Source: an uncultured Candidatus Hydrogenedens sp. (GTDB lineage: Bacteria; Myxococcota; UBA4151). Taken from it: a stretch of 64,000 nucleotides of DNA. Of this stretch, positions 3,599-48,332 are shown in pieces. Below the pieces are notes generated by a model. That model was given only the letters and a program-made list of their open reading frames with translations, searched no databases and was not told the origin of the DNA. A program made the position numbers and the translations under genes. The DNA lies in contig CACGMS010000001.1 of the NCBI GenBank assembly GCA_902574205.1, positions 41,819 to 105,818 on the forward strand, given 5' to 3'. Each line of letters begins with the position of its first letter. Position 1 is the stretch's first letter.

Positions 3599-3793
3599 TC
3601 ACACGCTGTTAGTTTCGATCGATGATAGCGATGACATCGCTTGATTGACCGCCGCAAAGCCAAGACCGCTATATTTTTTTCGAATCAAATGGCAGTGGGT
3701 GTCCTCTGAGAGAGGCTGGTCAGATCAGCATCGATGAGTGGTTGCCGGTTAATTAGCAGCCGGTCGAACCAGAAAAGTGCCAAAGGATTAACT

Positions 3794-7564: not shown

Positions 7565-7793
7565 ATGGATTTTGCCGCGTAGATAAGGTGAGCGGCTAAC
7601 CACTACATGCTGCTTCACCGGTGTGGTTCATCGGTTTGCGATGGCGATGGAGTATGGCGAGCGATCGAATCGACGTGAACTGGTGGCTTCGCTGATTTCA
7701 GGTCACTGGTCTGCTCTCGGTCCATGTGACTAAGGCAGTTCGCTCGACAAATCTCGACCTTGCGGGCAATTTGCTGCCTCGATGGAGGCGACG

Positions 7794-32999: not shown

Positions 33000-35240
33000 T
33001 CATCGCCGCTCAACCAAGACCCGATCGACTCTCATGTAGCTGATATCATGCCAGTAGAGACGGGTCTCGAGTCGATGCCCTTCTCTTCCTTGGTTATTAA
33101 AATTAATATTAAAGTCTTGGTAGGTAAACGGTGCGTTGAAGTCTGAGCGACGAATGTTCTCTATGGCGAAAATCTCACCCGTATCGGCGTCAAAGAGGTC
33201 CATGGTGGCGACGATCTCCGGACGGTCGTTCACGACATCGATCATGATTCGATACGATGCAGAGAGCTCACCGACCGACCAATCCTGAGCATAGGGCCCA
33301 TAAATTAGATGACCCTCTTGATCAGGCTCGACGGAGGCGGACCAGCCATCTTCTTCGGCGCGACCGAGACCGTGCTGCAAATCGCGCTCAGCCTCGTAGA
33401 GCCATTCAAAAGCGATGGGCTGTTGCGCGTCATGATGGATCGTTAATCGCCTCCGAGCCAGCGGGCTCTGTGTCCCGCTCGCCACTCCGCTGTGGATCAG
33501 CCCGCCGCCCATCTCGATACCGCCATGAACCACGCACAGGCAAAAGCCGCTGTCGTCATTATCGCCCGGTCCAAAGTTGCCGAGCGTAAAGGATCGACCG
33601 TTGGCGTAGGTATTGAAGTTACTCAGTGAAACCGGCTGCCCAGCCCAGCCCAAAACCACGTCATGGTTTGGTACATCGTCCGGGAGGCGCGTCCATTGAC
33701 CGGGCGTCAAGTTGATGCGCCGGCCTGACCAATTGACGCCGACCTCTCGCTCGGTGACGCGGACGTAGCGATTCAAGCGCTTGAGCGGGTGAGCGGCTGG
33801 CCACTCGGTCATCACAAAGCCGCCAATAAAGCTGTAGGGTCCATCAAAGGTAGGATTGTCTTGCGGGTTACGCACCTGAACGAGTCGATCCACATCATGG
33901 CTGGTAGCGTCGAGTTCGTAGCCCACGCGCAGGTAGACCGGTCGTCGAACGCCATCATCGAATAAGTAGTCCTCGTGACAATTGCGTCCGGTGGAGCTCC
34001 CTCCAAAATCACCCTGCTTGGTGAGTCGACCTTCATAGACAATCCGTAGTGTGGTCTCGGTTGAGCTGACTTCGATCGGTTCAAAGCGCTGACTCCAGCC
34101 TGGTGAGCCTTCATTGCAAGCGCTCCAGGTCGGGATATCGGGGTCGGTATAGTGGGGGGCTTCAGCGAGACTGTATTGCGCACAAAAGGAGTTCTCGTCG
34201 GCGCAACTTGGGTTGTCATCTTCTTCAGGGACGGCGTTGGGGAACTCGATGTGTTCGGCGCCTTTATAGCCAGCAGGCCAGCGCCCTTGTCCGCGCTCGC
34301 CGACGACGAGGGCGTTGACCGGACGGTTGCCATCGAGCAGAACGAAGTCAAGGGATTCAAGGTTGCCATTGAGCGCCCAGAGCCCATTCATTTTCCCATA
34401 AAAACCGGTCTCATCGAGCCACGCCATGTACCAGCGACCGACAAAGACCCGGTCCTGGCTATTCGGTCCTGTTTGGTCATCGAGACCGAGCCCCTCAAGA
34501 GCGCGTCGAATCAGCCCATCAACGTGATCTGGCGGTGCGCCAGAGTAGTCATGGATTCGAGGTAAACCCTCGATGATGCGGGTGGGTAGCAAGTTGGCGA
34601 GACAGGAATTGCTGCACGCATCGTCATCCACCTGGTTGCCGTCGTCGCATTGTTCGACGCCGGCGTGGATGAGACCGTCTCCGCACCGGGCGAGGACGCA
34701 GCCGCTCAAGCAATCGTCGGTGTCGACGCTGTTCCCATCGTCGCAGGCTTCAAATCCGTCGTCAGTCGCGCCGAGGTCGGCTCGTACCACGCCGTCACCG
34801 CATATCGCTGGTGCACAATCATTACGGCATGCGTCTGCATCGTCTCGATTGCCGTCGTCACAGTGTTCGAAATCGCTGTCGCCCTCGGAGCGGTCGAGAC
34901 GGACAATGCCATCACCGCAACGGCTGGTTGTGCATCGATTAGAACATCCGTCCGTCTCGCGGGTATTGCCATCGTCACAAGCCTCAAACTCTTCGCTGTC
35001 TGGTGCTTGATCGATACGCGTCACTCCGTCACCGCATCGAGCCCGTTCGCAAGCGTTGGTACAACGATCGGTATTGTCGGCGTTGGCGTCGTCGCATGCT
35101 TCACCGGTCTCGAGTGTTCCGTTCCCGCACGAGGCTTCTCGGTCACGGATGATGACTTGTTCTGAGCAAGCCGATATCATCCACGAAGTGATGAATAGAG
35201 CGATCAAAAAGAAGGGTCGTTGCACGATATCTCCAGCCAC
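33000..35240 (-). CDS. Cys-rich repeat lipoprotein (5 units) with a ~530-aa orphan C-terminal domain
   Basis: It has a GTG start and the lipobox MISAC. The post-lipobox SEQVIIRDREASCGNG parallels 21090 and 27391. After the 5 CDDGN units I recognised no family. Confidence 0.85.
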   Translation of the reverse strand: MAGDIVQRPFFLIALFITSWMISACSEQVIIRDREASCGNGTLETGEACDDANADNTDRCTNACERARCGDGVTRIDQAPDSEEFEACDDGNTRETDGCSNRCTTSRCGDGIVRLDRSEGDSDFEHCDDGNRDDADACRNDCAPAICGDGVVRADLGATDDGFEACDDGNSVDTDDCLSGCVLARCGDGLIHAGVEQCDDGNQVDDDACSNSCLANLLPTRIIEGLPRIHDYSGAPPDHVDGLIRRALEGLGLDDQTGPNSQDRVFVGRWYMAWLDETGFYGKMNGLWALNGNLESLDFVLLDGNRPVNALVVGERGQGRWPAGYKGAEHIEFPNAVPEEDDNPSCADENSFCAQYSLAEAPHYTDPDIPTWSACNEGSPGWSQRFEPIEVSSTETTLRIVYEGRLTKQGDFGGSSTGRNCHEDYLFDDGVRRPVYLRVGYELDATSHDVDRLVQVRNPQDNPTFDGPYSFIGGFVMTEWPAAHPLKRLNRYVRVTEREVGVNWSGRRINLTPGQWTRLPDDVPNHDVVLGWAGQPVSLSNFNTYANGRSFTLGNFGPGDNDDSGFCLCVVHGGIEMGGGLIHSGVASGTQSPLARRRLTIHHDAQQPIAFEWLYEAERDLQHGLGRAEEDGWSASVEPDQEGHLIYGPYAQDWSVGELSASYRIMIDVVNDRPEIVATMDLFDADTGEIFAIENIRRSDFNAPFTYQDFNINFNNQGREGHRLETRLYWHDISYMRVDRVLVERR

Positions 35241-35374: not shown

Positions 35375-36844
35375 ATGCTGAGCTTGCGTGTATGGTGGAT
35401 GACGCTTTGCGCAGCTTTTGTCGTGAGCGGTGTTGTGCCGACAACGGCTGCAGCGGCACCTGCTGAAGACGCCGTCGATTCCGCAGATGAGACCCTACTT
35501 CTGGCGCAAAGTCGCCGCAAACGTAAGCGCCGGCGCAAACGGCGTAAGCGCAGGGCGGTCAAACCCGCAAAGCCGGCACAACCACAACCCAAAGAAGTGG
35601 TTAAAGAGCCCGTCAAAGAACCGGCAAAGCCGGCAGTTAAAGAGCCTGCTAAGCCTAAGCCAGTTGATCCCAACAAACCGAAACCGCTTAAACTCGCTGC
35701 TTTTGATATGACCAGCGCAGCAAAAGATATCGATGCGCAAATGTTGCGCGTGTTGACCGAGGTTGTGCTGACTACAATCAGTGCAGACGGTCGGTTTGAG
35801 AGCGTGATTACCGGCTCGGATCTGCGTGCTTTAATCAATCTTGAAAATCAAAAGCAGATGCTTGGCTGCGAAGATGCTGGGTGTTTGACCCAACTTGGAC
35901 AAGCGATTGATGTGCCTTATTTACTCACTGGTGAGGTGGGACGGGTTGGACAGCAAACGGTCATCAATCTCAAAATTATCGATATTGCTGAAGCTAAGGT
36001 TTTGGCGCGCGAAGGCGGAATGGTCGACAACGAATCCAAACTTCCGGAGTTGGTCAAACAAGCAGCAGGCAAAGCGCTGGCTAGTTTCTTTGCTCAGGTC
36101 AATCCCGAAGCAAAAGCAAAAGCGCAAACCGAACTCGATAAGCTGCCTGCGGTGGCGGTGCTCGATCTTGAGGCAGTGCATGGTGTGAAATCCACCATGG
36201 CTGCTGTGCTCAGTGATATTTTACTCTCGAGGTTATCGGACTCACGGAAGTTTAGCTCGATTATCGCCGGTGAAGATTTGCGCGATATGGTCAGTTTAGA
36301 GCAACAAAAAGAAGCGCTGGGCTGCGATGATGAAAGCTGCATGACGGCGATTGGTGGAGCCTTGGGCGTGCCCCTGATGGCGGTACCGAGCATCGGGCGA
36401 GTCGGCGAGCAGTTTGTCCTGAATCTTAAGGTCATTGAGGTTGAAGAGGCGAAGGTTCGAGTGCGTAAGAACCGTATGGTGCGCCGCGAGGTGGATCTGC
36501 CGACGGCAGTCCTTGGATTGACCGACGATGTGCTCAAAGCCTTGTTTGGTGAAGAAGCCTTGCTGACCGCTGAGCAAGCGACCAATCGCTTCGCCCGCAA
36601 GTTGATGCGCGGGACGTCGTTGGCGGTCGGTTTGGCATCGGTTGCTAGTTGGGGATTTTCGATGATGGACCTCGGCGCGGCTCAAGCTGCTTATGATGAC
36701 CCTCAAACCGGTCTGAGCGAGCAGACGCATAGCGACTTGATGGCTGCTCAAGAGCGCGCTTACACCCTGCGGTTGGGCGCATTGGTTGGCGGCGCAGTGA
36801 CGGCGGCGCTGTGGCTATTTTCGCCGACTGAGACGGCGCCCTAA
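35375..36844 (+). CDS. Membrane-anchored protein with two copies of the GC-x4-C / ALGVP module and an R/K then K/P/E-rich N-terminal linker
   Basis: A signal peptide is followed by RRKRKRRRKRRKRR and a KP/KEP-rich stretch. Module 1 is ...NQKQMLGCEDAGCLTQLGQAIDVPYLLTGEVGRVGQQTVINLKIIDIAEAKV. Module 2 is ...QQKEALGCDDESCMTAIGGALGVPLMAVPSIGRVGEQFVLNLKVIEVEEAKV. The C-terminal hydrophobic hairpin flanks AQAAYDD. Confidence 0.85.
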   Translation: MLSLRVWWMTLCAAFVVSGVVPTTAAAAPAEDAVDSADETLLLAQSRRKRKRRRKRRKRRAVKPAKPAQPQPKEVVKEPVKEPAKPAVKEPAKPKPVDPNKPKPLKLAAFDMTSAAKDIDAQMLRVLTEVVLTTISADGRFESVITGSDLRALINLENQKQMLGCEDAGCLTQLGQAIDVPYLLTGEVGRVGQQTVINLKIIDIAEAKVLAREGGMVDNESKLPELVKQAAGKALASFFAQVNPEAKAKAQTELDKLPAVAVLDLEAVHGVKSTMAAVLSDILLSRLSDSRKFSSIIAGEDLRDMVSLEQQKEALGCDDESCMTAIGGALGVPLMAVPSIGRVGEQFVLNLKVIEVEEAKVRVRKNRMVRREVDLPTAVLGLTDDVLKALFGEEALLTAEQATNRFARKLMRGTSLAVGLASVASWGFSMMDLGAAQAAYDDPQTGLSEQTHSDLMAAQERAYTLRLGALVGGAVTAALWLFSPTETAP

Positions 36845-36850
36845 AATCGT

Positions 36851-37654
36851 CTAGCGACTAAAGATCAACGGGTAGTTGATGACCGAAGTCCCGCGTGATT
36901 TCGGGTACCGAAAGCGCTTGATTCGACTCGTTATACAGCCTTCGACAGCTTTGTTGGTAAGCGTACTTTGCGTGATTTTTACTTGTTTGACGCGGCCGCT
37001 CTGAACCGTCACCCGCGCAGTGACTTTACCACTCAGCGTTGGGCTTCTCTGGAGTTGGCGCTGGTAGCAAAACTTAATGGCATTTGTGTATTTCCTGATG
37101 GTTCGTCGCGCATGATTTTTTGCTAAGGACCCGCTCACCGTGACGCGACCTACACGAAATTTGCCTTTTCTCCGTTGCTTCGTCCGCAAGGTTTTGCTGG
37201 CGGCAGCCATTTTGTTTGCTGGCTCTGGGGGTTTTCCCGCTAGCGCGGGCGCTTCCGCCTTAACTGCACCTGAGGCTTTCGCCACATCGCCTGTAGCTTT
37301 CGCTTCACCCATCAATGCATCGACCGATTTGGCAGAAGCCGCTTTCAACGCCACGGCAACGTCGGCGGCAGCCGGTTCAGCTTTGGCTGGAGCCGCCGCT
37401 TCAACCGGCTTTTTATCTCCGGCCTGAGCAGCAAAAAATCCGGACTTAGAGTCGTCGTTATCGGCTGACTTTTCTTTGATCTGCGCGAGCATTTTTTTAG
37501 CCGCAGATTTTGACTTCTTCGCACTTTTCGACCCGCTTGAAGATAGAGAGAATGATGATAAACCAGGCGCTCTAACGCCACCTTCACTGCGACCGATTTC
37601 CCAGGCACTGCCCAGCATCAATAGTGCTAATAGACCCATAACGCCCTGTTGCAT
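36851..37654 (-). CDS. AgmX/PglI-type (TonB-C-like) C-terminal domain protein with an Ala/Lys-rich linker
   Basis: GGAG lies 7 nt before the ATG at 37654; the track ORF starts at 37702. The C-terminus FCYQRQLQRSPTLSGKVTARVTVQSGRVKQVKITQSTLTNKAVEGCITSRIKRFRYP matches the myxobacterial AgmX/PglI tail as I remember it. Confidence 0.75.
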   Translation of the reverse strand: MQQGVMGLLALLMLGSAWEIGRSEGGVRAPGLSSFSLSSSGSKSAKKSKSAAKKMLAQIKEKSADNDDSKSGFFAAQAGDKKPVEAAAPAKAEPAAADVAVALKAASAKSVDALMGEAKATGDVAKASGAVKAEAPALAGKPPEPANKMAAASKTLRTKQRRKGKFRVGRVTVSGSLAKNHARRTIRKYTNAIKFCYQRQLQRSPTLSGKVTARVTVQSGRVKQVKITQSTLTNKAVEGCITSRIKRFRYPKSRGTSVINYPLIFSR

Positions 37655-37923
37655 CCTAAGCTCCGATTCACTTGATGGTGTATCTGCAACAGGGCGAATC
37701 ACTGGTCGTCAAGGGTCCAGCTTGTTTCCCTGTAGACCGTTTGCTTGAGTTGCTCGCCTGTCTTGTCGAGAGAGGAGGTATTTGGAATTCAGTGTTCGTG
37801 GTACGTGATCAACAAAGTGGCGACAAGCCACAGCGTTTGCCGATGGTCATCTGGGCGTCATCGACATCAGCGAGGATGTACCCTGTCAGATGCTCTAAAT
37901 CGTACTGTGGATAGTTATCCTAT

Positions 37924-39267
37924 TTATCGCTGGCGGAGCATCACGATACGCACCCCAAAGCCGACGATCAGCAAGACCGTGCCGGCAACGATCATGCGTG
38001 GATCGACAAAGATGGCGAGCCCAAGGCAGGTTAGGAGACCCATCCAGGAGATCAGGCGCGGATAGCGTCTAGCCTGGCTGGGCAGTCGAAGGGCAGCTAA
38101 GTTCGTTAGTCCGTAATAGATCAGCACGGTAAAAGCGCTAAAGGACCAGGTGGTTTTGATATCACCGAGCAAAACCAGGCCCGAAATCAGCGCACCGATG
38201 ACCCAGACCGCGCGCTCGGGACTGCTGTTCTTCTCGTTGATCTGCTCTAGCGACTCGGGCATCTCTTTGCGCCTTGCCATGGCGAGCAGGACACGGCTGA
38301 GCCCAAGCAAGAGATTGAGTAAGACACCCACCATGGCGGTGATGGCGCCCAAGGCGACCACCCATGCCACCTGCGGTACGCTAAAGGTTCGAGCGACGAC
38401 CTCAAGTGGAGCTGCCGCCGATTGTGTTGACGCAGCAAAGGCCTCGGCACCGACAACAGCGACCGCAGTGACGGATACGGTGATGTAGAGCGTCATGGAG
38501 ATTAAAAGCGTGGCGATGATCGCTTTGGGGATGGTTTGAGCGGGGGATCGAACCTCTTCGCCTAGGGTCGCAATGCGTCCGTAGCCGGTGTAGGCGACGA
38601 ACATTAAAGCCGTGCCGTGAAAAAGTGCGCTCGCAGACTCGAGTTCGCTCCAGCCCTTATTGATCAAAGCGGTCGCTAAGCTTAGGCGGTCGTTTAGACT
38701 GTGAGGATCCAGGCGTTCAGCTAAAATCGGCGGATCGATACTCATCCAGCCAAAGACGACGAAGAGGGTGAGGGTGATGATCGTCAATGAGACGATCACG
38801 ATGTTGGCAGTGTTTGAGCGCTTTAATCCGCCAGCCACCAAGGCGGTGAGCGCTAGAACCAAGGCGAGCGCTAAGCCGACTCGATAGGGCATGTGGTCGG
38901 CAAAGCCAAACGTGTGTAAAAAATAGCCCGCACAACCAAGCGCTGCCGTTGCCGCAGAGGCGCTTTTTGCAGCTAGAAACATCCACCCGGCGCTGAAGCC
39001 GGCGAAGGGATGGATAAAGGTATGCCCGTATTCATAGGTGCCACCGCTGACGGGGTGCGCCGCTGCCAGTTGAGCGCTGGATAATCCATTCGCGATGGCG
39101 ACCAAAGCAGCTAAAACTACGGCTAAAATAACACCGGTTCCGACTACTCCAGCGGCAATACCTAGGCTGACAAAAACACCGGTGCCCAAGATGGACCCAA
39201 GGCCCATCCACACTGCGCCCCAAAGACCCACCACACGGCTCAGTGCGGGTTGACTTGTCATTCTCAT
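37924..39267 (-). CDS. APC-family amino acid permease
   Basis: The protein has about 12 hydrophobic segments. The N-terminal GSILGTGVFVSLGIAAG signature and overall composition are typical of amino acid/polyamine/organocation transporters. Confidence 0.85.
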   Translation of the reverse strand: MRMTSQPALSRVVGLWGAVWMGLGSILGTGVFVSLGIAAGVVGTGVILAVVLAALVAIANGLSSAQLAAAHPVSGGTYEYGHTFIHPFAGFSAGWMFLAAKSASAATAALGCAGYFLHTFGFADHMPYRVGLALALVLALTALVAGGLKRSNTANIVIVSLTIITLTLFVVFGWMSIDPPILAERLDPHSLNDRLSLATALINKGWSELESASALFHGTALMFVAYTGYGRIATLGEEVRSPAQTIPKAIIATLLISMTLYITVSVTAVAVVGAEAFAASTQSAAAPLEVVARTFSVPQVAWVVALGAITAMVGVLLNLLLGLSRVLLAMARRKEMPESLEQINEKNSSPERAVWVIGALISGLVLLGDIKTTWSFSAFTVLIYYGLTNLAALRLPSQARRYPRLISWMGLLTCLGLAIFVDPRMIVAGTVLLIVGFGVRIVMLRQR

Positions 39268-39281
39268 TGCTCCGAATGGCG

Positions 39282-41072
39282 TTAGCGATACTTGGCCTCG
39301 TCAAAGGCGAGTGCACCCCAGCAGGCGAGTTTGCCATTTGCTCTTAAACCACACGTTGTAAAGCGCCCAGCATCAATGGTTGCAAACGGGGTTTTATCGA
39401 CCTTGAGTTCACCATAATCATTCGAGCCCCAACACGTCACCGTTTGATCGGGTTTGAGCGCACAACTGTGCTGTGCACCCGCCTGAATGTTTGTGTAGCG
39501 ACCTTGGGGTGCTTGTGTTTGACCATAGCGGTTGGACCCCCAACACAGGATGCGTTGGTCTTTCGTCAGTCCACAGGTATGCCATTGACCGGCTTCGACT
39601 TGCCGAAAAATTCCTTTGGGTGGCGTCGCTTCAGTATGGTCATCGGCTCCCCAACAGCGGATCGTCTTGTTCAAGCGTAACGCGCAGTTGTGATACCCAC
39701 CCGAACTCACGGATCGGAACATCCCTCTTGGGCGCTTGGTTTGACCCGATTCATTATCGCCCCAGCATGTGATTCGCCCATCAGAGCGTAAGCCGCACGA
39801 ATGAAATTTCCCGGCGCTGATCGCCTCATAGCGCCCTTTGGGCACATTGAGCTGCCCGTTATCATTAGAACCCCAACAGACCACGCGTTTCTTTTTCGTG
39901 AGCCCGCAGGTGTGAACGGCTCCAGCAGCTAGGCTAACCAACGGTATCCTCGGCGCATGATCGCGCCCGCTTCGATCGTTGGCATTACGAGAGGCATAAC
40001 ATTGGCCTTCGGATCCGCCTTTGAGCACGCAGACATGAGACCAGATGGCGAGCACTCGAGGCGGAACTTGAAGATCGGTGCCGCGTTTGAGTTTGACCTT
40101 CCATGTGGTGGTCTTGCCTGCTTTAACACTCAGTACTTTTTTTGCCGAGCGATAGCCTTTGCGACTGACCACGACATCGTACTTACCGCTCTTTGCGCCC
40201 TTAACGCGCACCGGTAAGCCTTTGCTCACTTCAAAGGTTCCCGGACCAACGATCCTCACCTTTGCACCTTTAGGTTTTCCTTTGATGTGAAGTGTGCCGG
40301 GTTTCTTAAGCCGAATATTGAGCGCCTTGGTTTCATCGGTCTTGACCCACAGCACCCCGCGCTGAGTTTGTCGTCCTTTGGCTTTGGCTTGCCATCGGTA
40401 CAGCCCTTGCGGGACCTTTTTTAGCCAGGGCTTTTTCGGGTTGATTTTGAGGCGCACTTGAAAGCCGGCGGTGCCTCGGATTTTGACACGAGCACCTTTG
40501 GGTTTGCCGGTAATATTGATCCAGCCAAGCGCTCCCGTAATGGCGCCGCCCTCGACGGCTAGATCGTTACCCTTCCCTGATTCGCTGCTTTGTTCACCGA
40601 GCAATTCGCTTATTTTGGGTTCGAGTAGATCGAGCACGGTTTCGATTTGTTTGCCTTGGACATCGATGGTTCGAATCGCTTTGACACGCTCGATATCGAC
40701 AAGCTTGAGCAGTAAAACAAAGCGCATGCCGACGCGACTAAATTTACCGGTGATCATGACTCGAGCGCCAAGCGCGCCGCCGATCTCGGCGATACAACTC
40801 TCCATCTTGCAGCCGCCGGAGAGTTGGCGTTGCAACTCGACATCGATGGCGTCCATCGCTTCGGGGGTCACGAGCGTGTATCGCTCTGATTGTCCGGCGC
40901 GAATGCGGATCATTTCGGTGAGCGTGGCGGCATCAGATGCTTGGGTTTTGACGCGCTGCAACGGTGCAACGACAAGGGTCGGCTTCTCTGGCGCAGGAGC
41001 ACCAATCAGCAAAGCAAGCGCCACCATGTTGCATGCAGCCACGATGATCTCCAAGCTGATACTAAGGACCAA
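39282..41072 (-). CDS. Fusion protein: GC-x4-C / ALGA module + two PEGA domains + RCC1-like repeat propeller
   Basis: The module is ...LQRQLSGGCKMESCIAEIGGALGARVMITGKFSRVGMRFVLLLKLVDIERVKA. The PEGA-like segments are KPKGARVKIRG... and KPKGAKVRIVG...VVVSRKGYRSAKKVLSVKAGKTTTWKVKL. About 6 short RCC1 blades follow (HTCGL..VVCWGSNDNGQL, HSCGL..ITCWGDNESGQT, and others). The start is uncertain (41072 or 41027). Confidence 0.85.
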   Translation of the reverse strand: MVLSISLEIIVAACNMVALALLIGAPAPEKPTLVVAPLQRVKTQASDAATLTEMIRIRAGQSERYTLVTPEAMDAIDVELQRQLSGGCKMESCIAEIGGALGARVMITGKFSRVGMRFVLLLKLVDIERVKAIRTIDVQGKQIETVLDLLEPKISELLGEQSSESGKGNDLAVEGGAITGALGWINITGKPKGARVKIRGTAGFQVRLKINPKKPWLKKVPQGLYRWQAKAKGRQTQRGVLWVKTDETKALNIRLKKPGTLHIKGKPKGAKVRIVGPGTFEVSKGLPVRVKGAKSGKYDVVVSRKGYRSAKKVLSVKAGKTTTWKVKLKRGTDLQVPPRVLAIWSHVCVLKGGSEGQCYASRNANDRSGRDHAPRIPLVSLAAGAVHTCGLTKKKRVVCWGSNDNGQLNVPKGRYEAISAGKFHSCGLRSDGRITCWGDNESGQTKRPRGMFRSVSSGGYHNCALRLNKTIRCWGADDHTEATPPKGIFRQVEAGQWHTCGLTKDQRILCWGSNRYGQTQAPQGRYTNIQAGAQHSCALKPDQTVTCWGSNDYGELKVDKTPFATIDAGRFTTCGLRANGKLACWGALAFDEAKYR

Positions 41073-41652
41073 CCCAGTGGCTATTCAAGGTGCCATCACT
41101 GCCCCATGTAAATTGTGCCCGGCGATGACCGATTGCAGCGAGGTAGAGCCAGTCGATCGATTGGATCTGAATGTGGACGCGAGCGAAAGCGGGGTAGCCG
41201 TCGTGTTCACCTGCCGTTTCCTCTGCTCGCGACCTCGGCTCATCGATCGGCGATCCAGGCGTTGTTTTGACTCGGTAGCAATCGCGCGCACTCGAGTTCA
41301 TGCTGTTCCATTTTGCCAGCGTTGCGTCCGTGTTGTGCTCTAGTCGTGCGGTACCCTGAACCCGAAACTGAAGCTTCTGTTTCGGGAAATAGAAATGCAT
41401 TGCGATACGGTTATTGGCTTTCAGGTTAGCCCATTTTGGCGATCGGGCGTCGGTGTGGAACATGAGTTCGCGCTGCTCGGGTTCGCACCCTCGGAAGACG
41501 ACCGTGCGTAAACGGGGCTCACCATCAGTCCCAACCGTTCCGACGGTCGGCGTATGGCCCGGGGAGCGACGATCTTTGACCGCTCGGCGCAGATGCCTCC
41601 AGATCGATGCCTCGACCCCCTCAAGGGTTTGATAGTCTTCCGGGTAACTCAA
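41062..41652 (-). CDS. Pyridoxamine 5'-phosphate oxidase-family FMN-binding protein
   Basis: PTVGTVGTDGEPRLRTVVFRG...MFHTDARSPKWANLKANNRIAMHFYFPKQKLQFRVQGTA matches the PNPOx-like split-barrel pattern. Confidence 0.8.
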   Translation of the reverse strand: MSYPEDYQTLEGVEASIWRHLRRAVKDRRSPGHTPTVGTVGTDGEPRLRTVVFRGCEPEQRELMFHTDARSPKWANLKANNRIAMHFYFPKQKLQFRVQGTARLEHNTDATLAKWNSMNSSARDCYRVKTTPGSPIDEPRSRAEETAGEHDGYPAFARVHIQIQSIDWLYLAAIGHRRAQFTWGSDGTLNSHWVGP

Positions 41653-41675
41653 GCTATGCCTCGCTCACTTTCTCA

Positions 41676-43247
41676 CTAACTCGATGATTTCCGTTCGCCG
41701 CTTCTACGCCTTGGCTTGGTCCGTTTACGCCGGCTTCCATGTCGTCTCAATACCTCTTGCGCTTGGGATTTCGCTGCGGGCGTTCGTCGAATTGCGAAGA
41801 TTTTATCTTTAGCAGCGCGGACAGCTGCGTTGTGATCGACGATCGGTAGTGGGTAGGTGACCCCAGGCCGAAAGCTGGTTTGCGCTTGTTCAATCATATC
41901 TATGGTGTGCGGCTCGGCGATGCATCGGTTGGGGACGTCTTCGAGTTCAGGAACCCAGCGTCGAATAAAAATACCCTCGGGGTCCTGATCGGTTGCTTGT
42001 TTGGTCGGGGAGTAAATTCGGACGGCATTAATGCCGGTCACTCCGCTTTGCATTTGCAACTGATTGTAGTGAATCCCGGGCTCGTAATCGAGAAATTGGC
42101 GAGCCAGATATTTGCCTGTCAGTTGCCAGGGTAGCCAGAGGTGATACGACGCAAACGAGACGACCATCGCACGCATTCTGAAGTTGAGCCAGCCAGTAGC
42201 ATTGAGGAATCGCATGCACGCATCCACCATGGGATAACCCGTATGTCCAGATTTCCAGGCGTCGAAATAGGCTTGATTGGGCGTTTCGTTACGCAGTCCG
42301 TCGAAGGCGCGCACTAAGTTGTTATGCTCAATGCTCGGGTCGGATTCGAGTCGCTGGATAAAGTGCCCGTTCCAATGGAGTCGCTTGTTAAAGCTCGACA
42401 GTGAGCGTGCCCACTGATTGAGTCCGCCGATGCCTTGCCGTTGACGCTCGCGGACAGATGCAATCCGCTGAAGATAGCGTTGATAAACCGTGCGAACCGA
42501 GATGGCTCCATAGGCAATGTAAGGACTCAGTCGGCTACAGGCATCTGCTCCTTCCAGCGGCGAAGACATAGCGCTTTGATAGGCTTTACCCCGTTCAAAC
42601 AAGAAGCTGTGCAGCGCCGCCTGCGCAGCACGTTCACCCGGAACTTGCATCTGCGCTCGGCTGGTTGCCTCGATGCCCAGTGCGGTTGGACTGAGGATAC
42701 CTTCAGACGCAATGCCAGCTGGGCAACTTATCGCAGCGGGGTGGGGAGCCATGGTCGAGCGCATGTCGCGCTCCCACAGCGCAGCCCATCCGTCGCGATC
42801 TCTAAGTCCTCGAAAAACACCTTGTTGCCGAGTTTCTCGCCACTCAATCCTACGATTTCTCGCCCACTTCTTGACCGCTAAGTCACGGGCATAGGTCTTA
42901 GCATTGCCCGTTTCTTGATGGCTGAGCATACGTCGGAAGTTGGTTTCATGGTGCAGCTGTTCAAGAACATCGACGGCGGCTCCATGCCTAGTCACCAGAT
43001 ATCCGCCGCGCTCGCGCAAGGCACTGTCGAGATCATGGAGGCAACCATTGACGAACTCGACGTCCGGCGTATGCGTGATTTCATCATGCAAGATCTCAGG
43101 TTCGTAGATGTACAGACAGATGCAGTGCCCTTGGCGAGCCGCTTCAAACAGCGGCTCATGATCACTCACGCGCAAATCCCGCTTGAACCAAACGAGTGTC
43201 GGTGGCTGCCTGGTGGGTGTGCTGTTTTGCACGAACAGATTCTCCAA
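41676..43247 (-). CDS. Cryptochrome/photolyase-family flavoprotein with a basic C-terminal tail
   Basis: The N-terminus is LVWFKRDLRVSDHEPLFEAA. The FAD-binding region is TGYPMVDACMRFLNATGWLNFRMRAMVVSFASYHL. The tail is RRHGSRRKRTKPRRRSGERKSSS. The subclass is not determinable by eye. Confidence 0.85.
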   Translation of the reverse strand: MENLFVQNSTPTRQPPTLVWFKRDLRVSDHEPLFEAARQGHCICLYIYEPEILHDEITHTPDVEFVNGCLHDLDSALRERGGYLVTRHGAAVDVLEQLHHETNFRRMLSHQETGNAKTYARDLAVKKWARNRRIEWRETRQQGVFRGLRDRDGWAALWERDMRSTMAPHPAAISCPAGIASEGILSPTALGIEATSRAQMQVPGERAAQAALHSFLFERGKAYQSAMSSPLEGADACSRLSPYIAYGAISVRTVYQRYLQRIASVRERQRQGIGGLNQWARSLSSFNKRLHWNGHFIQRLESDPSIEHNNLVRAFDGLRNETPNQAYFDAWKSGHTGYPMVDACMRFLNATGWLNFRMRAMVVSFASYHLWLPWQLTGKYLARQFLDYEPGIHYNQLQMQSGVTGINAVRIYSPTKQATDQDPEGIFIRRWVPELEDVPNRCIAEPHTIDMIEQAQTSFRPGVTYPLPIVDHNAAVRAAKDKIFAIRRTPAAKSQAQEVLRRHGSRRKRTKPRRRSGERKSSS

Positions 43248-43459: not shown

Positions 43460-44272
43460 ATGAATCACGAAGAACCGCCAGTCACTCATGAAGAACCACC
43501 GGTTCACCAGGAGCTACCGGCAGCCAGCCCCCCATCTGCGGTCGAGACAAAGACCGAGGAGAAGGTCGATAAGCTGGACGATATGCTGACGAATTTGCCG
43601 TATATTAACGACACGCTCAAAGACATCGATACAAGGCAGCTTTTCGTCAAAGGCATCGTGACGATGATCCGCCTTGTCGCGATCCTCGGCTTGGCCTTAG
43701 GCGCAGTCATTTTACTCGCTGCGACCATCAAAGCCTTTGGCGGTGAACGTGCCGAGGGCGGTACGAAGATCCTTGGTGGTTTGGTCGTCTTACTTGGGTT
43801 TGTGCCGCTCATCTTATCGGTGATGGTGGTTAACCGGCGCAGCAAGCAGATTGAGATCCCGGATGGCTCGACCACCATTGAAGCGGTGATCAAGACGACC
43901 GGTACGTTGTTACGTATGTCGATCGAGGTCGTCGCAATTATTGCGGTGTTCAATCTGCTCGTGACCGGTCTGGTTCAGTTCATTATGGCTGAGGCAGACG
44001 CTGTTCAGTACGCGATATTTAGTATCATGGATGCGCAGTCGAGCTTTATGTCCGGTGGTGGCGGCGAAGACAGCTCGATCGCGCCAAGGCTCTTTGGTTT
44101 GGTCACCATGGCGGCGAGTATCGTCGTCGGGTTTGGCGTCTTGTTCGGCGGTTACTTTGGGTATGATTTACTCAAGATCGTCTACAGTTGGTTCTTGATG
44201 GTGATCGATTTTGTGCGTCGTATTTTGACGAATACGTTCCATCGCGCAAAAGGGGATAATGGCTCAGGCTGA
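43460..44272 (+). CDS. Hypothetical multi-pass membrane protein
   Basis: GGGAG lies 8 nt before the ATG at 43460. The N-terminus has a short repeat, HEEPPV x2. There are 4-5 hydrophobic segments. No family was recognised. Confidence 0.7.
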   Translation: MNHEEPPVTHEEPPVHQELPAASPPSAVETKTEEKVDKLDDMLTNLPYINDTLKDIDTRQLFVKGIVTMIRLVAILGLALGAVILLAATIKAFGGERAEGGTKILGGLVVLLGFVPLILSVMVVNRRSKQIEIPDGSTTIEAVIKTTGTLLRMSIEVVAIIAVFNLLVTGLVQFIMAEADAVQYAIFSIMDAQSSFMSGGGGEDSSIAPRLFGLVTMAASIVVGFGVLFGGYFGYDLLKIVYSWFLMVIDFVRRILTNTFHRAKGDNGSG

Positions 44273-45344
44273 TCGTCAACACTTTGTATCTAAAATCACC
44301 CTGTGCTTGGGTGGGTTGTTGGTCTTTGGATTCGTTCTGCAAGAGCTCAACCGCCGAAGCATCCCTGAGCGCGAGCGCTGGTCGCTCGCGCCGGGGCCAG
44401 GGGTGACGGTCAAACTCGATCGCCCCGCGGACACCTTTCGCGAGCTTGAGTGGACTGATGGGTCGCTTGAACTGCCCGCCCGCTGGTTGGAAATTGTACC
44501 CGGCCCTGGGTACTTGATCGCCAATTCCATACTCAAGTCACTGGCGAGCGATTTGTTGCTCGATACTCGCTATCCGGTGGAGCTGGGCTATCGAACCACA
44601 GCCGACAATGAACGCGTTCGATTCATCGTTGTCAGCACGAAAAATAGCGCCATTGCGTCTGCCAACTTAGGCAAGCTCTTGAACGTGGAGTCCGGCGCAG
44701 GCCAGGTCGCGACGATCAGTCGAGGTGCTTTGATCGGACAGACGCTGGTTTGGAAGTCTGCGCGCCGTCAACTCGCAGTGGTTGTCGGTTCGTCCAAAGA
44801 CCAAGCGCAGCATGTTCTCGATCAGATCAAGGCGGCGAATGAACCGTCCTCCAACGGGGTTCGATTAAGCTATCAGGTTGCGACACAAGCCGCGCAGGTT
44901 GACTCGCTCAGTCTTGCGCTCAGCTTTGAGGGCTTGGCGCTCAAGCTCAAAGGCAAGGCCACTACACGAGCAATCTTATCCTCTGCACCCATCGATAAAG
45001 AAAAGGTCCACTTAGCTGTTCGAAGCACCTCAAGCATGCAACCGCTTTGGGTCCTTGAGCAGCCAGATGGTTCATGGTGTCAGCGTGGTCTGACGCCCGT
45101 TTGGCAAAAGGCGATCGGCGCCACTGAGCGTTGCGTCAATGATCCACCTTTGGGTGCTTATGTTCATCTTTCAGATCGGATCTTTGACCGTTTCGATCTA
45201 CCATGGCTAGGCGCCGAGGTGACCTTTGAGCAAAGCGATCAAAGCGTCGTGATTGCAGGGGAGGCAATGGCGACCACCACTCCTCGGTTCTTTCCCATCT
45301 ATCGACAACTCAAGTCGCTAATGGGCGCTGAGCGTGTTCGGTAG
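44259..45344 (+). CDS. Hypothetical membrane-anchored protein
   Basis: It overlaps the upstream gene by 14 nt, so the two are likely co-transcribed. There is one N-terminal TM segment (ITLCLGGLLVFGFVL). No family was recognised. Confidence 0.7.
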   Translation: MAQADRQHFVSKITLCLGGLLVFGFVLQELNRRSIPERERWSLAPGPGVTVKLDRPADTFRELEWTDGSLELPARWLEIVPGPGYLIANSILKSLASDLLLDTRYPVELGYRTTADNERVRFIVVSTKNSAIASANLGKLLNVESGAGQVATISRGALIGQTLVWKSARRQLAVVVGSSKDQAQHVLDQIKAANEPSSNGVRLSYQVATQAAQVDSLSLALSFEGLALKLKGKATTRAILSSAPIDKEKVHLAVRSTSSMQPLWVLEQPDGSWCQRGLTPVWQKAIGATERCVNDPPLGAYVHLSDRIFDRFDLPWLGAEVTFEQSDQSVVIAGEAMATTTPRFFPIYRQLKSLMGAERVR

Positions 45345-45365
45345 TCGCTCGGTTTCGTGGTGCAG

Positions 45366-46568
45366 CTAATCGTTTATTGCGTCGTGAAAAAAGTCCACGA
45401 CAGCAGCGCGCTCTGAGGTGTCTGTAATGGTTGGGTTTCCAAGTTGTCCATGCGAGTTGTCTCCCCAACAGTAGGTATAGCCTCCTACGCTTACTGAGAT
45501 GCGCGCACAGCTAAAGGTCTTTCCGCCTGTGAACTGAACCCATTGCAGGTTGGGTAAGATTTCAACTTTTGCAATCCCGCTTTCATTCGGTTCACCGCCC
45601 AATTGACCGTACGAGTTATCGCCCCAGCAGACCGGGTGTCGGCCATCCGAATCGATCGCACACGTGTGGTTATCAGCGCAAAACACTTTGTCAGGAACCA
45701 TGGCAAGATTGATAACCTTTGGCGAGAGGTTACCGCCTGGATTGTTAGGCTGAATTTGCCCAAAGCTGTTATCGCCCCAGCACTGAACTTGTGGTCGGTC
45801 GTTCTCTCCTGTTTTGAGGATAACGCACGCGTGTTGGCGACCTACACAGAGTGAGTCGGGGTTAAGCTGACCGTCATTAGGTATGTCGAGAATCACCCTT
45901 GGTTCAGTGGGAAACGGATCCGCCTGCGTCGTTTGGCGTCCCCAGCAAATGACTTTGGATGGATTGAGCGTGACGGCACAGATATGGTCGTCGCCGACAT
46001 CAAAGGATTGGACGCTAATTGGTTGATCGTTCAGCTCCAACTGGAGCTCAAAAGGCGTGCGGTCGTTGGCGTCATTTTGACCAGGAAAAACCTGATACGA
46101 AGTGTCGCCCCAACAGGTGAGCGTGCCAAAGCCCGTATCATCTCGCTGCTGTGCGCAGGTTTTGGTTGAGCTTGATTTGATGGTCCGAAATTCACCGCTC
46201 ACGAGGAGCGTCGCCGCTTCTTGCGTGTCGTTGTGGCCAAAGACACCGTTGGGTGACTGCCCTGCACAGAGCACCTGACCGTCGACGCGTAAGCCGCAGA
46301 TCGTTGTACCGGTGACAGCGATCTGTTCAATGCCTTCTGATTGATTGATGGAAAACGGTAGCTCATAGGTTCGCCAGGGTGCACCTAAACTACCCCAGCA
46401 ACGAGTTTTTTCTGCGCCCGCTGCGGCGCAGACGAGGTCATCGACAGCGTCAATATGCTGCGGATCGTATTGATTGTAGTTGTATCCATCGAGCGGGTGA
46501 TTTCGCTCGGAGCTAATCGGGAGGCAGCTAAGACTTGATATCAGCGCCACAATGAGTAACGGCTTCAT
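45366..46568 (-). CDS. RCC1-repeat beta-propeller lipoprotein
   Basis: The ATG at 46568-46566 overlaps the upstream TGA (46567-46565) as ATGA. The lipobox is MKPLLIVALISSLSC. The blades include RCWGS, TCWGDTSYQ, ICWGRQ, QCWGDNSFGQ, VCWGDNSYGQLG and YCWGDNSHGQLG. Confidence 0.85.
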   Translation of the reverse strand: MKPLLIVALISSLSCLPISSERNHPLDGYNYNQYDPQHIDAVDDLVCAAAGAEKTRCWGSLGAPWRTYELPFSINQSEGIEQIAVTGTTICGLRVDGQVLCAGQSPNGVFGHNDTQEAATLLVSGEFRTIKSSSTKTCAQQRDDTGFGTLTCWGDTSYQVFPGQNDANDRTPFELQLELNDQPISVQSFDVGDDHICAVTLNPSKVICWGRQTTQADPFPTEPRVILDIPNDGQLNPDSLCVGRQHACVILKTGENDRPQVQCWGDNSFGQIQPNNPGGNLSPKVINLAMVPDKVFCADNHTCAIDSDGRHPVCWGDNSYGQLGGEPNESGIAKVEILPNLQWVQFTGGKTFSCARISVSVGGYTYCWGDNSHGQLGNPTITDTSERAAVVDFFHDAIND

Positions 46569-47350: not shown

Positions 47351-47378
47351 GGGTTAATCAATCCATTCATTTGAAATA

Positions 47379-48278: not shown

Positions 48279-48332
48279 TTGGTAGCAGCAAGCCTTTGAA
48301 AGCGTCAGAGAGTGCTCAGGGAGTCAGTCTTC

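What the first reader, a model, noticed from the sequence alone, without database searches (positions are those of the whole stretch)
39282..41072. Rosetta-stone fusion: GC-x4-C module + PEGA x2 + RCC1 repeats in one polypeptide
In this gene the module (…GGCKMESCIAEIGGALGARVMITGKFSRVGMRFVLLLKLVDIERVKA…) is covalently joined, through two PEGA-like domains, to an RCC1-like repeat propeller. Elsewhere in the window the module and an RCC1 propeller are separate, translationally coupled genes (45366..47350). By the domain-fusion principle, which is established as a heuristic, fusion in one paralog and adjacency in another supports a physical or functional link between module and propeller. The fusion lacks the C-terminal hydrophobic hairpin found in the stand-alone module proteins.
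Basis: partly seen in the sequence, partly recalled or inferred. Interest (0 to 1): 0.7.

Follow-up and report, generated by a model that had tools for sequence, protein, structure and literature searches.

The report
LpoB-like base fused to RCC1 propeller
A real, conserved gene of an uncultured myxobacterium joins a known type of cell-envelope docking domain (LpoB/TolB-N fold) through two spacer domains to a seven-bladed propeller, and related genomes encode the same two parts as tightly coupled neighbouring genes, which suggests that they work together; all the parts are known domain types and the function is untested.

Summary
ORF 39282..41072(-) is real. Its probable start is GTG 41042, giving 586 aa. 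It encodes a signal peptide, a "GC-x4-C" module, two PEGA beta-sandwiches and an RCC1-type propeller.

The module is not a new fold. It belongs to the LpoB/TolB-N/PelC/CsgG superfamily (AlphaFold pLDDT 92; Foldseek LpoB E 3e-7). The family is very large, about 19,900 cluster representatives.

- Fusion-type and stand-alone modules are homologous (hhalign 98.5%, E 3e-15).
- The fusion is not an artefact. Orthologues share 93% and 72% identity, one lies in a Myxococcota MAG, and Ka/Ks is about 0.06 in every domain.

Module-to-RCC1 adjacency recurs in other Myxococcota genomes (5 of 38 tightly coupled downstream genes, the commonest Pfam family). A parallel pair exists for fibrinogen/COLFI-like domains, both fused and adjacent.

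The link is weaker and broader than stated:
- The fused and split modules belong to different subfamilies.
- The two RCC1 domains are only about 24% identical.
- The module pairs with many "head" domains: RCC1, FReD, WD40, Kelch, TSP3 and TPR.

Best reading: a shared envelope "base" domain carries variable binding heads, either in one protein or through an ATGA-coupled lipoprotein gene. Interest is moderate.

The parts
39282..41042 (-). Fusion gene. 586 aa from the probable start GTG 41042; the mechanical ORF extends to TTG 41072. Stop codon at 39282-39284.
   Evidence: ORF list. Orthologues P0001, P0002 and L001 are all 586 aa. GGAG lies 6 nt upstream of GTG 41042. Ka/Ks against L001 is 0.064.
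40989..41042 (-). Sec-type signal peptide (MAACNMVALALLIGAPAP). There is no lipobox.
   Evidence: Read directly from the sequence. Orthologues have MRYLDLVAASLLVAAPAAA|KP. Ka/Ks is relaxed here, 0.42. No signal-peptide predictor was available, so this is an inference.
40593..40988 (-). The "GC-x4-C module": an LpoB/TolB-N-fold alpha/beta domain.
   Evidence: hhalign against stand-alone modules: 98.5%, E 3e-15. AlphaFold: pLDDT 92.2, pTM 0.84. Foldseek: LpoB 4q6z E 3e-7, TM 0.62, then FlgT, GNA1162, PelC, TolB N-domain and CsgG. A 52-sequence profile hits LpoB chains at E 0.002.
40794..40811 (-). Conserved Cys pair (C88 and C93 of the 596-aa ORF), at the loop and first turn of helix 3. Probably a disulfide.
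   Evidence: Both Cys are invariant in alignment A2 and at least 90% conserved in A10. The disulfide is inferred, because no coordinates could be inspected.
40311..40529 (-). First PEGA/CarboxypepD_reg-like beta-sandwich.
   Evidence: AlphaFold strands 172-244, pLDDT 84-92. CarboxypepD_reg hits fall at the same position in homologues P0022, L002 and L003.
40083..40298 (-). Second PEGA domain.
   Evidence: Pfam PEGA at aa 259-330, 30.3 bits against cutoff 20.8. AlphaFold strands 249-317, pLDDT 86-94.
39285..40040 (-). RCC1_2 / Crinkly-type beta-propeller. Six clear repeats of about 38 aa, each with H-x-C...C-W-G, plus a degenerate first blade.
   Evidence: Pfam RCC1_2 x6, E 1.7e-55. AlphaFold pLDDT up to 97. 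Foldseek top hits are the CRINKLY4/ACR4 ectodomain (E 8e-17, 28-35% id), UVR8 and RCC1. The seventh blade is inferred.
46565..47350 (-). Stand-alone module protein: signal peptide, module and a C-terminal hydrophobic pair.
   Evidence: Orthologue in L033, 54% identical.
45366..46568 (-). RCC1-repeat lipoprotein gene. Its ATG at 46568 overlaps the module gene's TGA as ATGA.
   Evidence: Pfam RCC1, RCC1_2 and WD40_RLD. Junction sequence. The orthologue in L033 has the canonical lipobox LLGC.
23925..24677 (+). Second stand-alone module protein with a hydrophobic C-terminus.
24674..25555 (+). Fibrinogen_C/COLFI-like lipoprotein gene (lipobox VLVAC). Its ATG overlaps the module gene's stop as ATGA.
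   Evidence: Pfam Fibrinogen_C, E 1e-5, 26 bits against cutoff 22. Junction sequence.
35375..36844 (+). Protein with two tandem modules and a hydrophobic C-terminus.
   Evidence: Tandem modules are common in the family.

Best explanation
The gene encodes a secreted, non-lipidated envelope protein of an uncultured Myxococcota bacterium. It has three units.
(i) A base: an LpoB/TolB-N-fold alpha/beta domain with a conserved, probably disulfide-bonded Cys pair.
(ii) Two PEGA beta-sandwiches acting as a spacer, and possibly as wall-associating domains.
(iii) A head: a Cys-rich, probably seven-bladed RCC1/Crinkly-type propeller that binds a ligand.

It is one member of a large paralogous system in which the same base is combined with interchangeable heads.
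- In cis, the heads are RCC1, a WD40/PD40-like propeller, TPR, a fibrinogen/COLFI-like domain, or a ~180-aa C-terminal region of unknown type that ends in a hydrophobic stretch.
- In trans, a base protein carrying a C-terminal hydrophobic pair is translationally coupled (ATGA overlap) to a lipoprotein. That lipoprotein carries RCC1, fibrinogen-like, TSP3, Kelch or WD40 domains.

The proposed mode of action is TolB-like bridging. The base docks on one envelope component and the head binds another, so that base and head act as a unit. In the split versions they would form a complex.

Shown here: the domain identities, the homology of the modules, the conservation of the fusion, and the recurrence of the cis and trans pairings.
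Inferred: periplasmic or envelope location, the disulfide, physical contact between base and head in the split pairs, and the bridging role.
For: Architecture and folds.

Module homology.

Real, selected gene:
- Orthologues at 93% and 72% identity, one in Myxococcota MAG XB_MAG121.
- Ka/Ks is 0.05-0.07 in the module, the PEGA domains and the propeller.

Size and membership of the module family:
- 19,937 representatives at E<=1e-3.
- Relatives hit LpoB, DUF3280, CsgG, TolB_N and FlgO. PEGA occurs in 26 of the 43 longest proteins.

Variable C-termini on the fusion-type base:
- RCC1: window, P0001, P0002, L001.
- TPR: P0028.
- WD40/PD40-like: P0034.
- COLFI/Fibrinogen-like: L005 and, weakly, L004.
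- About 180 aa of unknown type: P0022-like proteins.

Trans pairs:
- RCC1 is the commonest Pfam family among 38 tightly coupled downstream ORFs (5 of 38). Next come TSP_3, COLFI/Fibrinogen_C, WD40 and Kelch.
- Of the 9 non-fused RCC1 ORFs in the 80 loci, 5 are the immediately downstream, overlapping gene. A rough binomial estimate gives about 1e-3 if one gene in ten per locus counts as "immediately downstream" (own arithmetic).
- The pairs are mutually divergent: 23-35% identity for the RCC1 parts and 27-54% for the modules.
- ATGA or GTGA overlaps with lipoprotein-like ORFs occur in 17 of 85 module genes and at both window pairs.

A second module+PEGA+RCC1 protein, P0104, is only 24% identical. 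Each half of the window protein has much closer relatives that lack the other half. This favours repeated, independent assembly of the same combination.

Extracytoplasmic setting:
- A signal peptide and two Cys per propeller blade, read from the sequence.
- The closest structural match is an extracellular plant receptor propeller.
- A Myxococcus xanthus RCC1 protein is vesicle cargo (PMC4158809).
- PEGA is treated as a wall-associating domain (PMC7159879).
Against: - No experiment or complex prediction shows that base and head touch.
- In the full-length model the relative domain arrangement is undefined (pTM 0.41).
- Fused and split modules belong to different subfamilies, and the RCC1 domains are only generically related.
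- Both domain types are promiscuous, so co-occurrence may reflect only a shared compartment.
- RCC1 in cis is rare: 2 of the 43 longest relatives, and both were added by me.
- The fusion gene has no conserved neighbours, and its flanks differ between the window and L001.
- The TolB analogy rests on fold class and architecture only. No tol/pal genes lie nearby. TonB-C/AgmX-like neighbours occur in only 3 of 80 loci.
- The charge pattern around the hydrophobic pair of the split proteins does not fit a simple inner-membrane hairpin (notebook, unexplained).
Confidence: 0.55

Rival explanations
1. Shared-compartment coincidence. The LpoB-like module is a generic envelope anchoring or oligomerisation domain, and RCC1 propellers are simply common extracytoplasmic domains in Myxococcota. 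Fusion and adjacency would then reflect domain shuffling among envelope proteins and co-expression, with no direct functional dependence between module and propeller.
For: - The module family is huge and combines with many unrelated domains.
- RCC1 in cis is rare.
- The fused and adjacent versions involve different module subfamilies and RCC1 domains only about 24% identical.
- The window is packed with secreted repeat proteins.
- Promiscuous domains are a known source of false Rosetta-stone links (established knowledge; Marcotte et al. 1999).
Against: - RCC1 genes are enriched specifically in the immediately downstream, start/stop-overlapping position.
- The same partner classes recur both in cis and in trans: RCC1, FReD/COLFI and WD40.
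- ATGA coupling usually accompanies stoichiometric co-production of partners (general knowledge).
Confidence: 0.3
2. Export or display factor. The stand-alone module proteins would oligomerise into rings, as PelC, CsgG and FlgT do. With their C-terminal hydrophobic pair they would act as dedicated factors that insert, export or surface-expose the coupled lipoprotein. The fusion protein would then be a derived soluble relative in which cargo and factor are joined.
For: - The structural neighbours include ring-forming outer-membrane accessory proteins: PelC dodecamer, CsgG, FlgT, and the 8z5n LPHT ring.
- Downstream partners are almost always lipoproteins.
- The charge pattern around the hydrophobic pair is atypical for an inner-membrane hairpin (notebook, unexplained).
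Against: - The best sequence and structure match is the monomeric LpoB.
- There is no evidence of oligomerisation.
- The fusion lacks any membrane segment.
- Nothing was tested.
Confidence: 0.12
3. Artefact. The 596-aa ORF would be a chimera produced by misassembly, or by a frameshift joining a module+PEGA gene to an RCC1 gene.
For: The architecture is rare. The gene's flanks are not syntenic with the closest genome.
Against: - Independent assemblies carry the same full-length protein at 93% and 72% identity, and a MAG carries it at 87% nucleotide identity.
- Ka/Ks is 0.03/0.16 in the linker and about 0.06 overall.
- A distant protein, P0104, has the same order of domains.
Confidence: 0.01

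Closest known systems
TolB (Tol-Pal system periplasmic protein: TolB_N alpha/beta domain plus beta-propeller)
   Same: - A Sec-secreted soluble protein with an N-terminal alpha/beta domain of the same fold class. TolB N-domains appear among the Foldseek hits at E about 3e-5, TMq 0.56-0.66.
- TolB_N Pfam hits occur in 15 of 43 relatives.
- The N-terminal domain is followed by a C-terminal beta-propeller.
- One paralogue with the same base, P0034, carries a WD40/PD40-like propeller, and JGI names it "TolB-like protein".
   Different: - The propeller is RCC1/Crinkly-type with probably seven blades, not a six-bladed PD40 propeller.
- Two PEGA domains are inserted between base and propeller.
- The conserved Cys pair is absent from TolB.
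- There is no tolQRA/pal context.
- The window protein itself has no significant TolB_N hit.
LpoB (outer-membrane lipoprotein activator of PBP1B), Pfam PF13036
   Same: It is the best sequence and structure match of the module: Foldseek E 3e-7, TM 0.62; profile E 0.002 over nearly the whole domain. Close paralogues pass the Pfam cutoff.
   Different: - The window protein scores 20.5 bits against a cutoff of 22.3.
- It has no lipobox and no long disordered linker.
- It has a Cys pair that LpoB lacks, as the alignment shows.
- It carries added PEGA and RCC1 domains.
- LpoB is gammaproteobacterial (own knowledge).
Uncharacterised LpoB/CsgG-like + PEGA proteins (annotated as "PEGA domain-containing protein")
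   Same: The N-terminal 330 aa (module plus two PEGA domains) is 48-55% identical to P0022, P0157, P0027 and P0032. PEGA co-occurs with the module in 26 of the 43 longest relatives.
   Different: Those proteins end in about 180 aa of unknown type with a hydrophobic tail. Here that part is replaced by an RCC1 propeller. No function is published for them.
CRINKLY4/ACR4 ectodomain propeller and bacterial RCC1_2 repeat proteins
   Same: Short repeats of about 38 aa with two Cys per blade, in an extracytoplasmic propeller. Foldseek E 8e-17 with 28-35% identity.
   Different: CRINKLY4 is a plant receptor-kinase ectodomain, and no kinase or TNFR-like domain is present here. Similarity to Ran-GEF RCC1 is at fold level only (16-19% identity), so no GEF function is implied.
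Rosetta-stone / domain-fusion inference (Marcotte 1999; Enright 1999)
   Same: Homologues of two separately encoded proteins are found in one polypeptide.
   Different: The fused and separate versions are distant paralogues, not orthologues, and both domains are promiscuous. The inference therefore supports a class-level link (base with variable head) rather than a specific pair.

Membership tests
RCC1-like repeat propeller (Pfam RCC1_2 PF13540 / RLD) | Repeat HMM match above the curated cutoff | tested here: met
   183.9 bits against cutoff 22, six stretches.
RCC1-like repeat propeller (Pfam RCC1_2 PF13540 / RLD) | Seven-bladed beta-propeller fold | tested here: inconclusive
   The AlphaFold model shows six well-defined blades (pLDDT up to 97). 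The region that would form the first blade is below pLDDT 50. Foldseek matches seven-bladed CR4, UVR8 and RCC1.
RCC1-like repeat propeller (Pfam RCC1_2 PF13540 / RLD) | Guanine-nucleotide exchange activity on Ran-type GTPases (eukaryotic RCC1 proper) | not testable with these tools
   An extracytoplasmic, Cys-rich protein makes this unlikely (inference).
PEGA domain (PF08308) | HMM match above the curated cutoff | tested here: met
   The second domain scores 30.3 bits against 20.8. The first domain is supported only by the model and by homologues.
LpoB family (PF13036 / TIGR02722) | HMM match above the curated cutoff | tested here: not met
   Pfam gives 20.5 bits against 22.3. TIGR02722 gives 17.4 bits against 110.55. 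Paralogues L002, L003 and L006 do pass PF13036.
LpoB family (PF13036 / TIGR02722) | LpoB globular-domain fold | tested here: met
   Foldseek top hits are 4q6z, 4q6l and 2mii, at E 3e-7 to 3e-6 and TM about 0.62, using a model with pLDDT 92.
LpoB family (PF13036 / TIGR02722) | Outer-membrane lipoprotein (lipobox Cys) with a long flexible linker | tested here: not met
   There is no lipobox. The module starts directly after the signal peptide.
LpoB family (PF13036 / TIGR02722) | Binds and activates PBP1B through the UB2H domain | not testable with these tools
   No PBP gene lies adjacent.
TolB | TolB_N domain plus a six-bladed PD40 propeller | tested here: not met
   The window protein has no TolB_N or PD40 Pfam hit, and its propeller is RCC1-type. 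Only the fold class of the N-domain is shared.
TolB | Encoded in a tol-pal gene cluster | tested here: not met
   The neighbours are a photolyase, a PNPOx-like protein and an amino-acid permease.
Rosetta-stone pair (domain-fusion link) | Both parts of the fusion are homologous to the separately encoded proteins | tested here: met
   Module: hhalign 98.5%, E 3e-15. RCC1: BLASTP E 3e-14 but only about 24% identity.
Rosetta-stone pair (domain-fusion link) | The fusion is a real gene present in more than one genome | tested here: met
   P0001, P0002 and L001, with Ka/Ks 0.064.
Rosetta-stone pair (domain-fusion link) | The domains are not promiscuous (specificity of the inference) | tested here: not met
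   The module combines with PEGA, TPR, WD40, FReD, SH3, OMP barrels and Ank. RCC1 combines with dozens of families.

The most novel reading that the evidence does not exclude
The stand-alone form would be an undescribed two-gene envelope cassette that is widespread in Myxococcota. It consists of a secreted LpoB-fold base with a C-terminal hydrophobic pair, whose stop codon overlaps (ATGA) the start of a variable lipoprotein gene. In this reading the base protein is the dedicated anchor, receptor or display factor for a diversifying repertoire of adhesin-like lipoproteins with RCC1, fibrinogen-like, TSP3, Kelch or WD40 heads. The RCC1 fusion would be the single-chain version that reveals the partnership.
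Probability: 0.3. Interest if true: 0.6.

Novelty: new variant of a known kind. Interest (0 to 1): 0.4.

Why it matters
If base and head really work as a unit, a single conserved LpoB-fold domain would organise a large, variable set of propeller and fibrinogen-like surface or periplasmic proteins in myxobacteria. These organisms depend on envelope proteins for gliding, predation, kin recognition and multicellular development.

It would also extend the TolB design (alpha/beta docking domain plus propeller) to a diversified family. That would assign a testable role to thousands of "PEGA domain" and "DUF3280" hypothetical proteins.

As it stands, the result is a well-supported domain annotation plus a genomic-context hypothesis. 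It is not a demonstrated mechanism.

Tried and rejected
- PDB sequence search with the 10-sequence module profile found nothing relevant. A 52-sequence profile was needed to reach LpoB.
- The word-indexed homologue search with the module alignment returned only 23 short proteins without annotation. It was of little use for architectures.
- The third search, with the N-terminal half, returned 12 proteins and missed known orthologues, so its catalogue is incomplete.
- The full-length AlphaFold model left the module at pLDDT about 50. The module was therefore modelled separately.
- DNA alignment of the start regions of the window and L001 was uninformative.
- A synteny search showed no conserved neighbours for the fusion gene. 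Context therefore gives no functional clue.
- I tested whether modules sit next to TonB-C/AgmX-like proteins, as TolB_N binds TolA. Only 3 of 80 loci do, so the lead was dropped.
- The Kyte-Doolittle scan for the C-terminal hairpin was noisy, because the segments are rich in Gly, Ala and Ser.
- Literature searches found nothing describing this architecture or cassette. The queries were PEGA+Myxococcus, PEGA+LpoB, DUF3280/PF13036, RCC1+lipoprotein+Myxococcus, and "PEGA domain". The "DUF2380" found in one paper is a different family, the SitA6 toxin PF09533.
- The artefact or frameshift reading was rejected.
Full report
**1. The observation**

The ORF 39282..41072 on the minus strand is present (596 aa) and contains the quoted peptide.

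Three full-length relatives are each 586 aa: P0001 (93% identity), P0002 (72%), and the gene in locus L001 from "Myxococcota bacterium XB_MAG121". In the window a GGAG lies 6 nt upstream of GTG 41042, which would also give 586 aa. I therefore place the start at 41042.

Pfam results for the protein:
- Six RCC1_2 repeats, E 1.7e-55.
- One PEGA domain at aa 259-330, 30.3 bits against cutoff 20.8.
- Weak LpoB and DUF3280 similarity over aa 28-140, with LpoB at 20.5 bits, just under its cutoff of 22.3.

An AlphaFold model built on an 18-row alignment shows two confident beta-sandwiches at residues 172-244 and 249-317 of the 586-aa protein (pLDDT 84-94). It also shows a propeller at 370-576 with pLDDT up to 97. 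The "two PEGA-like domains plus RCC1 propeller" description is therefore right.

The propeller's closest solved structures are the extracellular CRINKLY4/ACR4 propeller (E 8e-17, 28-35% identity), then UVR8 and RCC1. Each repeat carries two Cys, read directly from the sequence. This fits an oxidising, extracytoplasmic location.

**2. The module**

A motif scan finds five copies in the window: 23925..24677(+), two in 35375..36844(+), the fusion, and 46565..47350(-).

A profile of fusion-type modules against a profile of stand-alone modules gives hhalign probability 98.5%, E 3.1e-15 over 103 columns.

The module is not a new fold:
- A profile of ten modules finds 19,937 cluster representatives at E<=1e-3, and 9,436 at E<=1e-10, among 1.84 billion. 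Many carry two to five tandem copies.
- Among the 43 longest of the best hits, the module region matches LpoB (22 proteins), DUF3280 (18), CsgG (17), TolB_N (15) and FlgO (7).
- A 52-sequence profile reaches LpoB chains in the PDB at E 0.002 over nearly the whole domain.
- The module modelled alone with that alignment is confident (pLDDT 92.2, pTM 0.84).
- Its best structural matches are LpoB (E 3e-7, TM 0.62), FlgT, GNA1162, PelC, the TolB N-terminal domain and CsgG.

The two Cys are invariant or nearly so and are absent from LpoB (alignment). A disulfide is a reasonable inference but was not verified.

**3. The fusion is a real gene**

The window gene and L001 share 87% nucleotide identity over the gene only. 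The flanks are unrelated.

Nei-Gojobori Ka/Ks values:

| Region | Ka/Ks |
|---|---|
| Module | 0.047 |
| PEGA domains | 0.066 |
| Propeller | 0.065 |
| Signal peptide | 0.42 |
| Overall | 0.064 |

The second refutation test (assembly or frameshift artefact) is therefore also passed.

A distant protein, P0104 (678 aa, 24% identity over 95% of the query), has the same order: module, three PEGA domains, RCC1 repeats. Each half of the window protein has much closer relatives that lack the other half. The N-terminal half is 48-55% identical to P0022, P0157, P0027 and P0032. The propeller is 40-43% identical to RCC1 proteins without a module. The combination has therefore probably been assembled more than once. 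This is an inference.

**4. Architectures in cis**

The module-plus-two-PEGA scaffold of the fusion recurs with other C-termini:
- About 180 aa of unknown type ending in a hydrophobic stretch: P0022, P0157, P0027, P0032, P0287, P0187, L002, L003.
- TPR repeats: P0028.
- A WD40/PD40-like propeller: P0034, named "TolB-like protein" by JGI.

A closely related module is followed instead by a COLFI/Fibrinogen_C-like domain in L005 (COLFI 27.6 bits against cutoff 26.2). L004 shows the same weakly, supported by local phmmer at E about 1e-7.

PEGA is the commonest cis partner: 26 of the 43 longest representatives, and 14 of 87 module ORFs in genomes. RCC1 in cis is rare.

**5. Architectures in trans**

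A scan of one genome per species for the motif C[ILM][AT][EQ][IL]G[GQ]AL[GD] confirmed 353 stretches. The best 80 loci are all titled Myxococcota, Myxococcales, Anaeromyxobacter or legacy "Deltaproteobacteria", except one titled "Proteobacteria bacterium". The motif is narrow, so this says little about the wider family.

In these loci I called ORFs and looked at the gene directly downstream on the same strand. Among 38 tightly coupled downstream ORFs, the Pfam families were:

| Family | ORFs |
|---|---|
| RCC1 (L029, L033, L040, L069, L072) | 5 |
| TSP_3 | 2 |
| COLFI/Fibrinogen_C | 2 |
| WD40 | 2 |
| CarboxypepD_reg | 2 |
| Kelch | 1 |
| Lcl_C | 1 |
| DUF4215 | 1 |

A few of the 38 are obvious non-partners.

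Of the nine non-fused RCC1 ORFs anywhere in the 80 loci, five are the immediately downstream, overlapping gene. One is the next gene but one (L070), and one lies directly upstream on the same strand (L044). If about ten genes per locus are assumed, five or more of nine in that single position has a binomial probability near 1e-3. This is my own arithmetic. It is rough, and L033 is the orthologue of the window pair.

The pairs are not copies of one another. The RCC1 proteins are 23-35% identical and range from 401 to 1009 aa. The modules are 27-54% identical.

**6. Coupling**

In the window, the TGA of 46565..47350 overlaps the ATG of the RCC1 gene (ATGA, ATG at 46568). The TGA of 23925..24677 overlaps the ATG of a Fibrinogen_C-like gene (ATG at 24674). 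Both junctions read CGATGAAG.

In the loci, 17 of 85 module genes have an ATGA or GTGA overlap with an ORF of at least 150 aa. Nearly all of those ORFs start with a lipoprotein-type signal peptide. The RCC1 partners also start this way, for example LLGC in L033 and LAAGC in L040.

The general pattern is a base protein with a hydrophobic C-terminus followed by a coupled, variable lipoprotein.

**7. Interpretation**

The same partner classes (RCC1, fibrinogen/COLFI-like, WD40-type propellers) appear fused to the module in one subfamily. In another subfamily they are encoded immediately downstream of it. This is the pattern the domain-fusion heuristic looks for, and it is stronger than the single window example.

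It supports a functional link between the LpoB-fold base and a variable class of binding heads. It does not show a specific module-RCC1 interaction, and it does not show physical contact. The caveats are these:
- The fused and split modules are only 20-26% identical.
- The two RCC1 domains in the window are about 24% identical.
- Both domain types are promiscuous.

**8. Mechanism**

I commit to a base-and-head model, at about 0.55 confidence.

After Sec export, the LpoB/TolB-N-fold domain docks on an envelope component. The PEGA pair spaces the protein or associates it with the wall; PEGA is treated as peptidoglycan-associating in PMC7159879. The Cys-stabilised propeller binds a second ligand.

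The closest analogue in design is TolB, which has an alpha/beta N-domain and a propeller that bind different partners. In the split cassettes the base would hold, or cooperate with, the coupled lipoprotein.

An RCC1-repeat protein is specific outer-membrane-vesicle cargo in Myxococcus xanthus (PMC4158809). This is consistent with an envelope or surface role for such propellers.

Rivals:
- Mere co-compartment shuffling: 0.3.
- A PelC/CsgG-like ring that exports or displays the lipoprotein: 0.12.
- Artefact: 0.01.

**9. Membership**

| Family | Result |
|---|---|
| RCC1_2 | Met |
| PEGA | Met for the second domain |
| LpoB, sequence | Curated cutoffs not met |
| LpoB, lipoprotein nature | Not met |
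| LpoB, fold | Met |
| TolB | Not met (no TolB_N or PD40 hit, no tol-pal context) |

The protein works like a TolB-style two-ended adaptor at the level of design only.

**10. Novelty and limits**

All domains are known. The LpoB-like + PEGA x2 + RCC1 architecture is rare. I found three sequence clusters and one MAG gene (which may be the same sequence as one of the clusters), plus one distant protein. I found no paper describing it or the coupled cassette.

The architecture catalogue is incomplete. The word-indexed searches miss relatives, only the top 150 representatives could be inspected, and ORF calling in the loci was mechanical.

The topology of the C-terminal hydrophobic pair is unexplained. 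Basic residues precede it and the loop is acidic. This is unexpected for an inner-membrane hairpin attached to a periplasmic domain.

Noticed in passing
window 45366..47350 (-) and 23925..25555 (+): There are two module-to-lipoprotein gene pairs in which the module's stop codon overlaps the lipoprotein's start codon as ATGA. Both junctions read CGATGAAG. The same kind of overlap with lipoprotein-like ORFs occurs in 17 of 85 module genes in other Myxococcota genomes.
   Followed up: partly
window 46565..47350 (-), aa ~183-258; also 23925..24677 and 35375..36844: The C-terminal hydrophobic pair of the stand-alone module proteins is preceded by K/R residues and has an acidic connecting loop. This is the opposite of the positive-inside rule for an inner-membrane hairpin following a periplasmic domain. 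The topology and the membrane involved are unknown.
   Followed up: partly
window 35375..36844 (+) and 36851..37702 (-): A protein with two tandem modules has a K/R/P-rich low-complexity N-terminus. It lies convergent to a gene whose product ends in an AgmX/PglI (GltG/GltJ-like, TonB-C-related) domain (NCBIfam E 2.5e-25). Such neighbours occur in only 3 of 80 related loci.
   Followed up: partly
window 239..2494, 3734..7564, 18192..20840, 21090..23822, 27391..29880, 33000..35240, 61659..62513: The window holds a dense set of large secreted proteins built from myxococcal Cys-rich repeats (CDDGN...; Pfam DUF4215, up to 12 repeats). Two of them end in fibrinogen-like domains: a Pfam COLFI hit at 27391..29880, and sequence resemblance only at 21090..23822.
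   Followed up: partly
L081 2052..4088 and 6100..10088: The distant module+PEGAx3+RCC1 protein P0104 lies a few kb from a CBASS-like operon (DncV-like nucleotidyltransferase, E2/ThiF, JAB, SAVED effector). This is probably coincidental.
   Followed up: no
window 37924..43247 (-); L001 1..9572: In the window the fusion gene sits in a same-strand run with a photolyase, a PNPOx-like gene and an amino-acid permease. Its 87%-identical orthologue in MAG XB_MAG121 has entirely different neighbours, although the nearby region 43568..48933 is syntenic with another contig of that MAG (L033). The gene or its surroundings have therefore been rearranged.
   Followed up: partly
L005 1473..2681; L004 5956..7395: Close paralogues of the fusion's module (53-54% identical) are fused directly to a COLFI/Fibrinogen_C-like domain. 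This mirrors the module-to-fibrinogen-like gene pair at window 23925..25555.
   Followed up: yes
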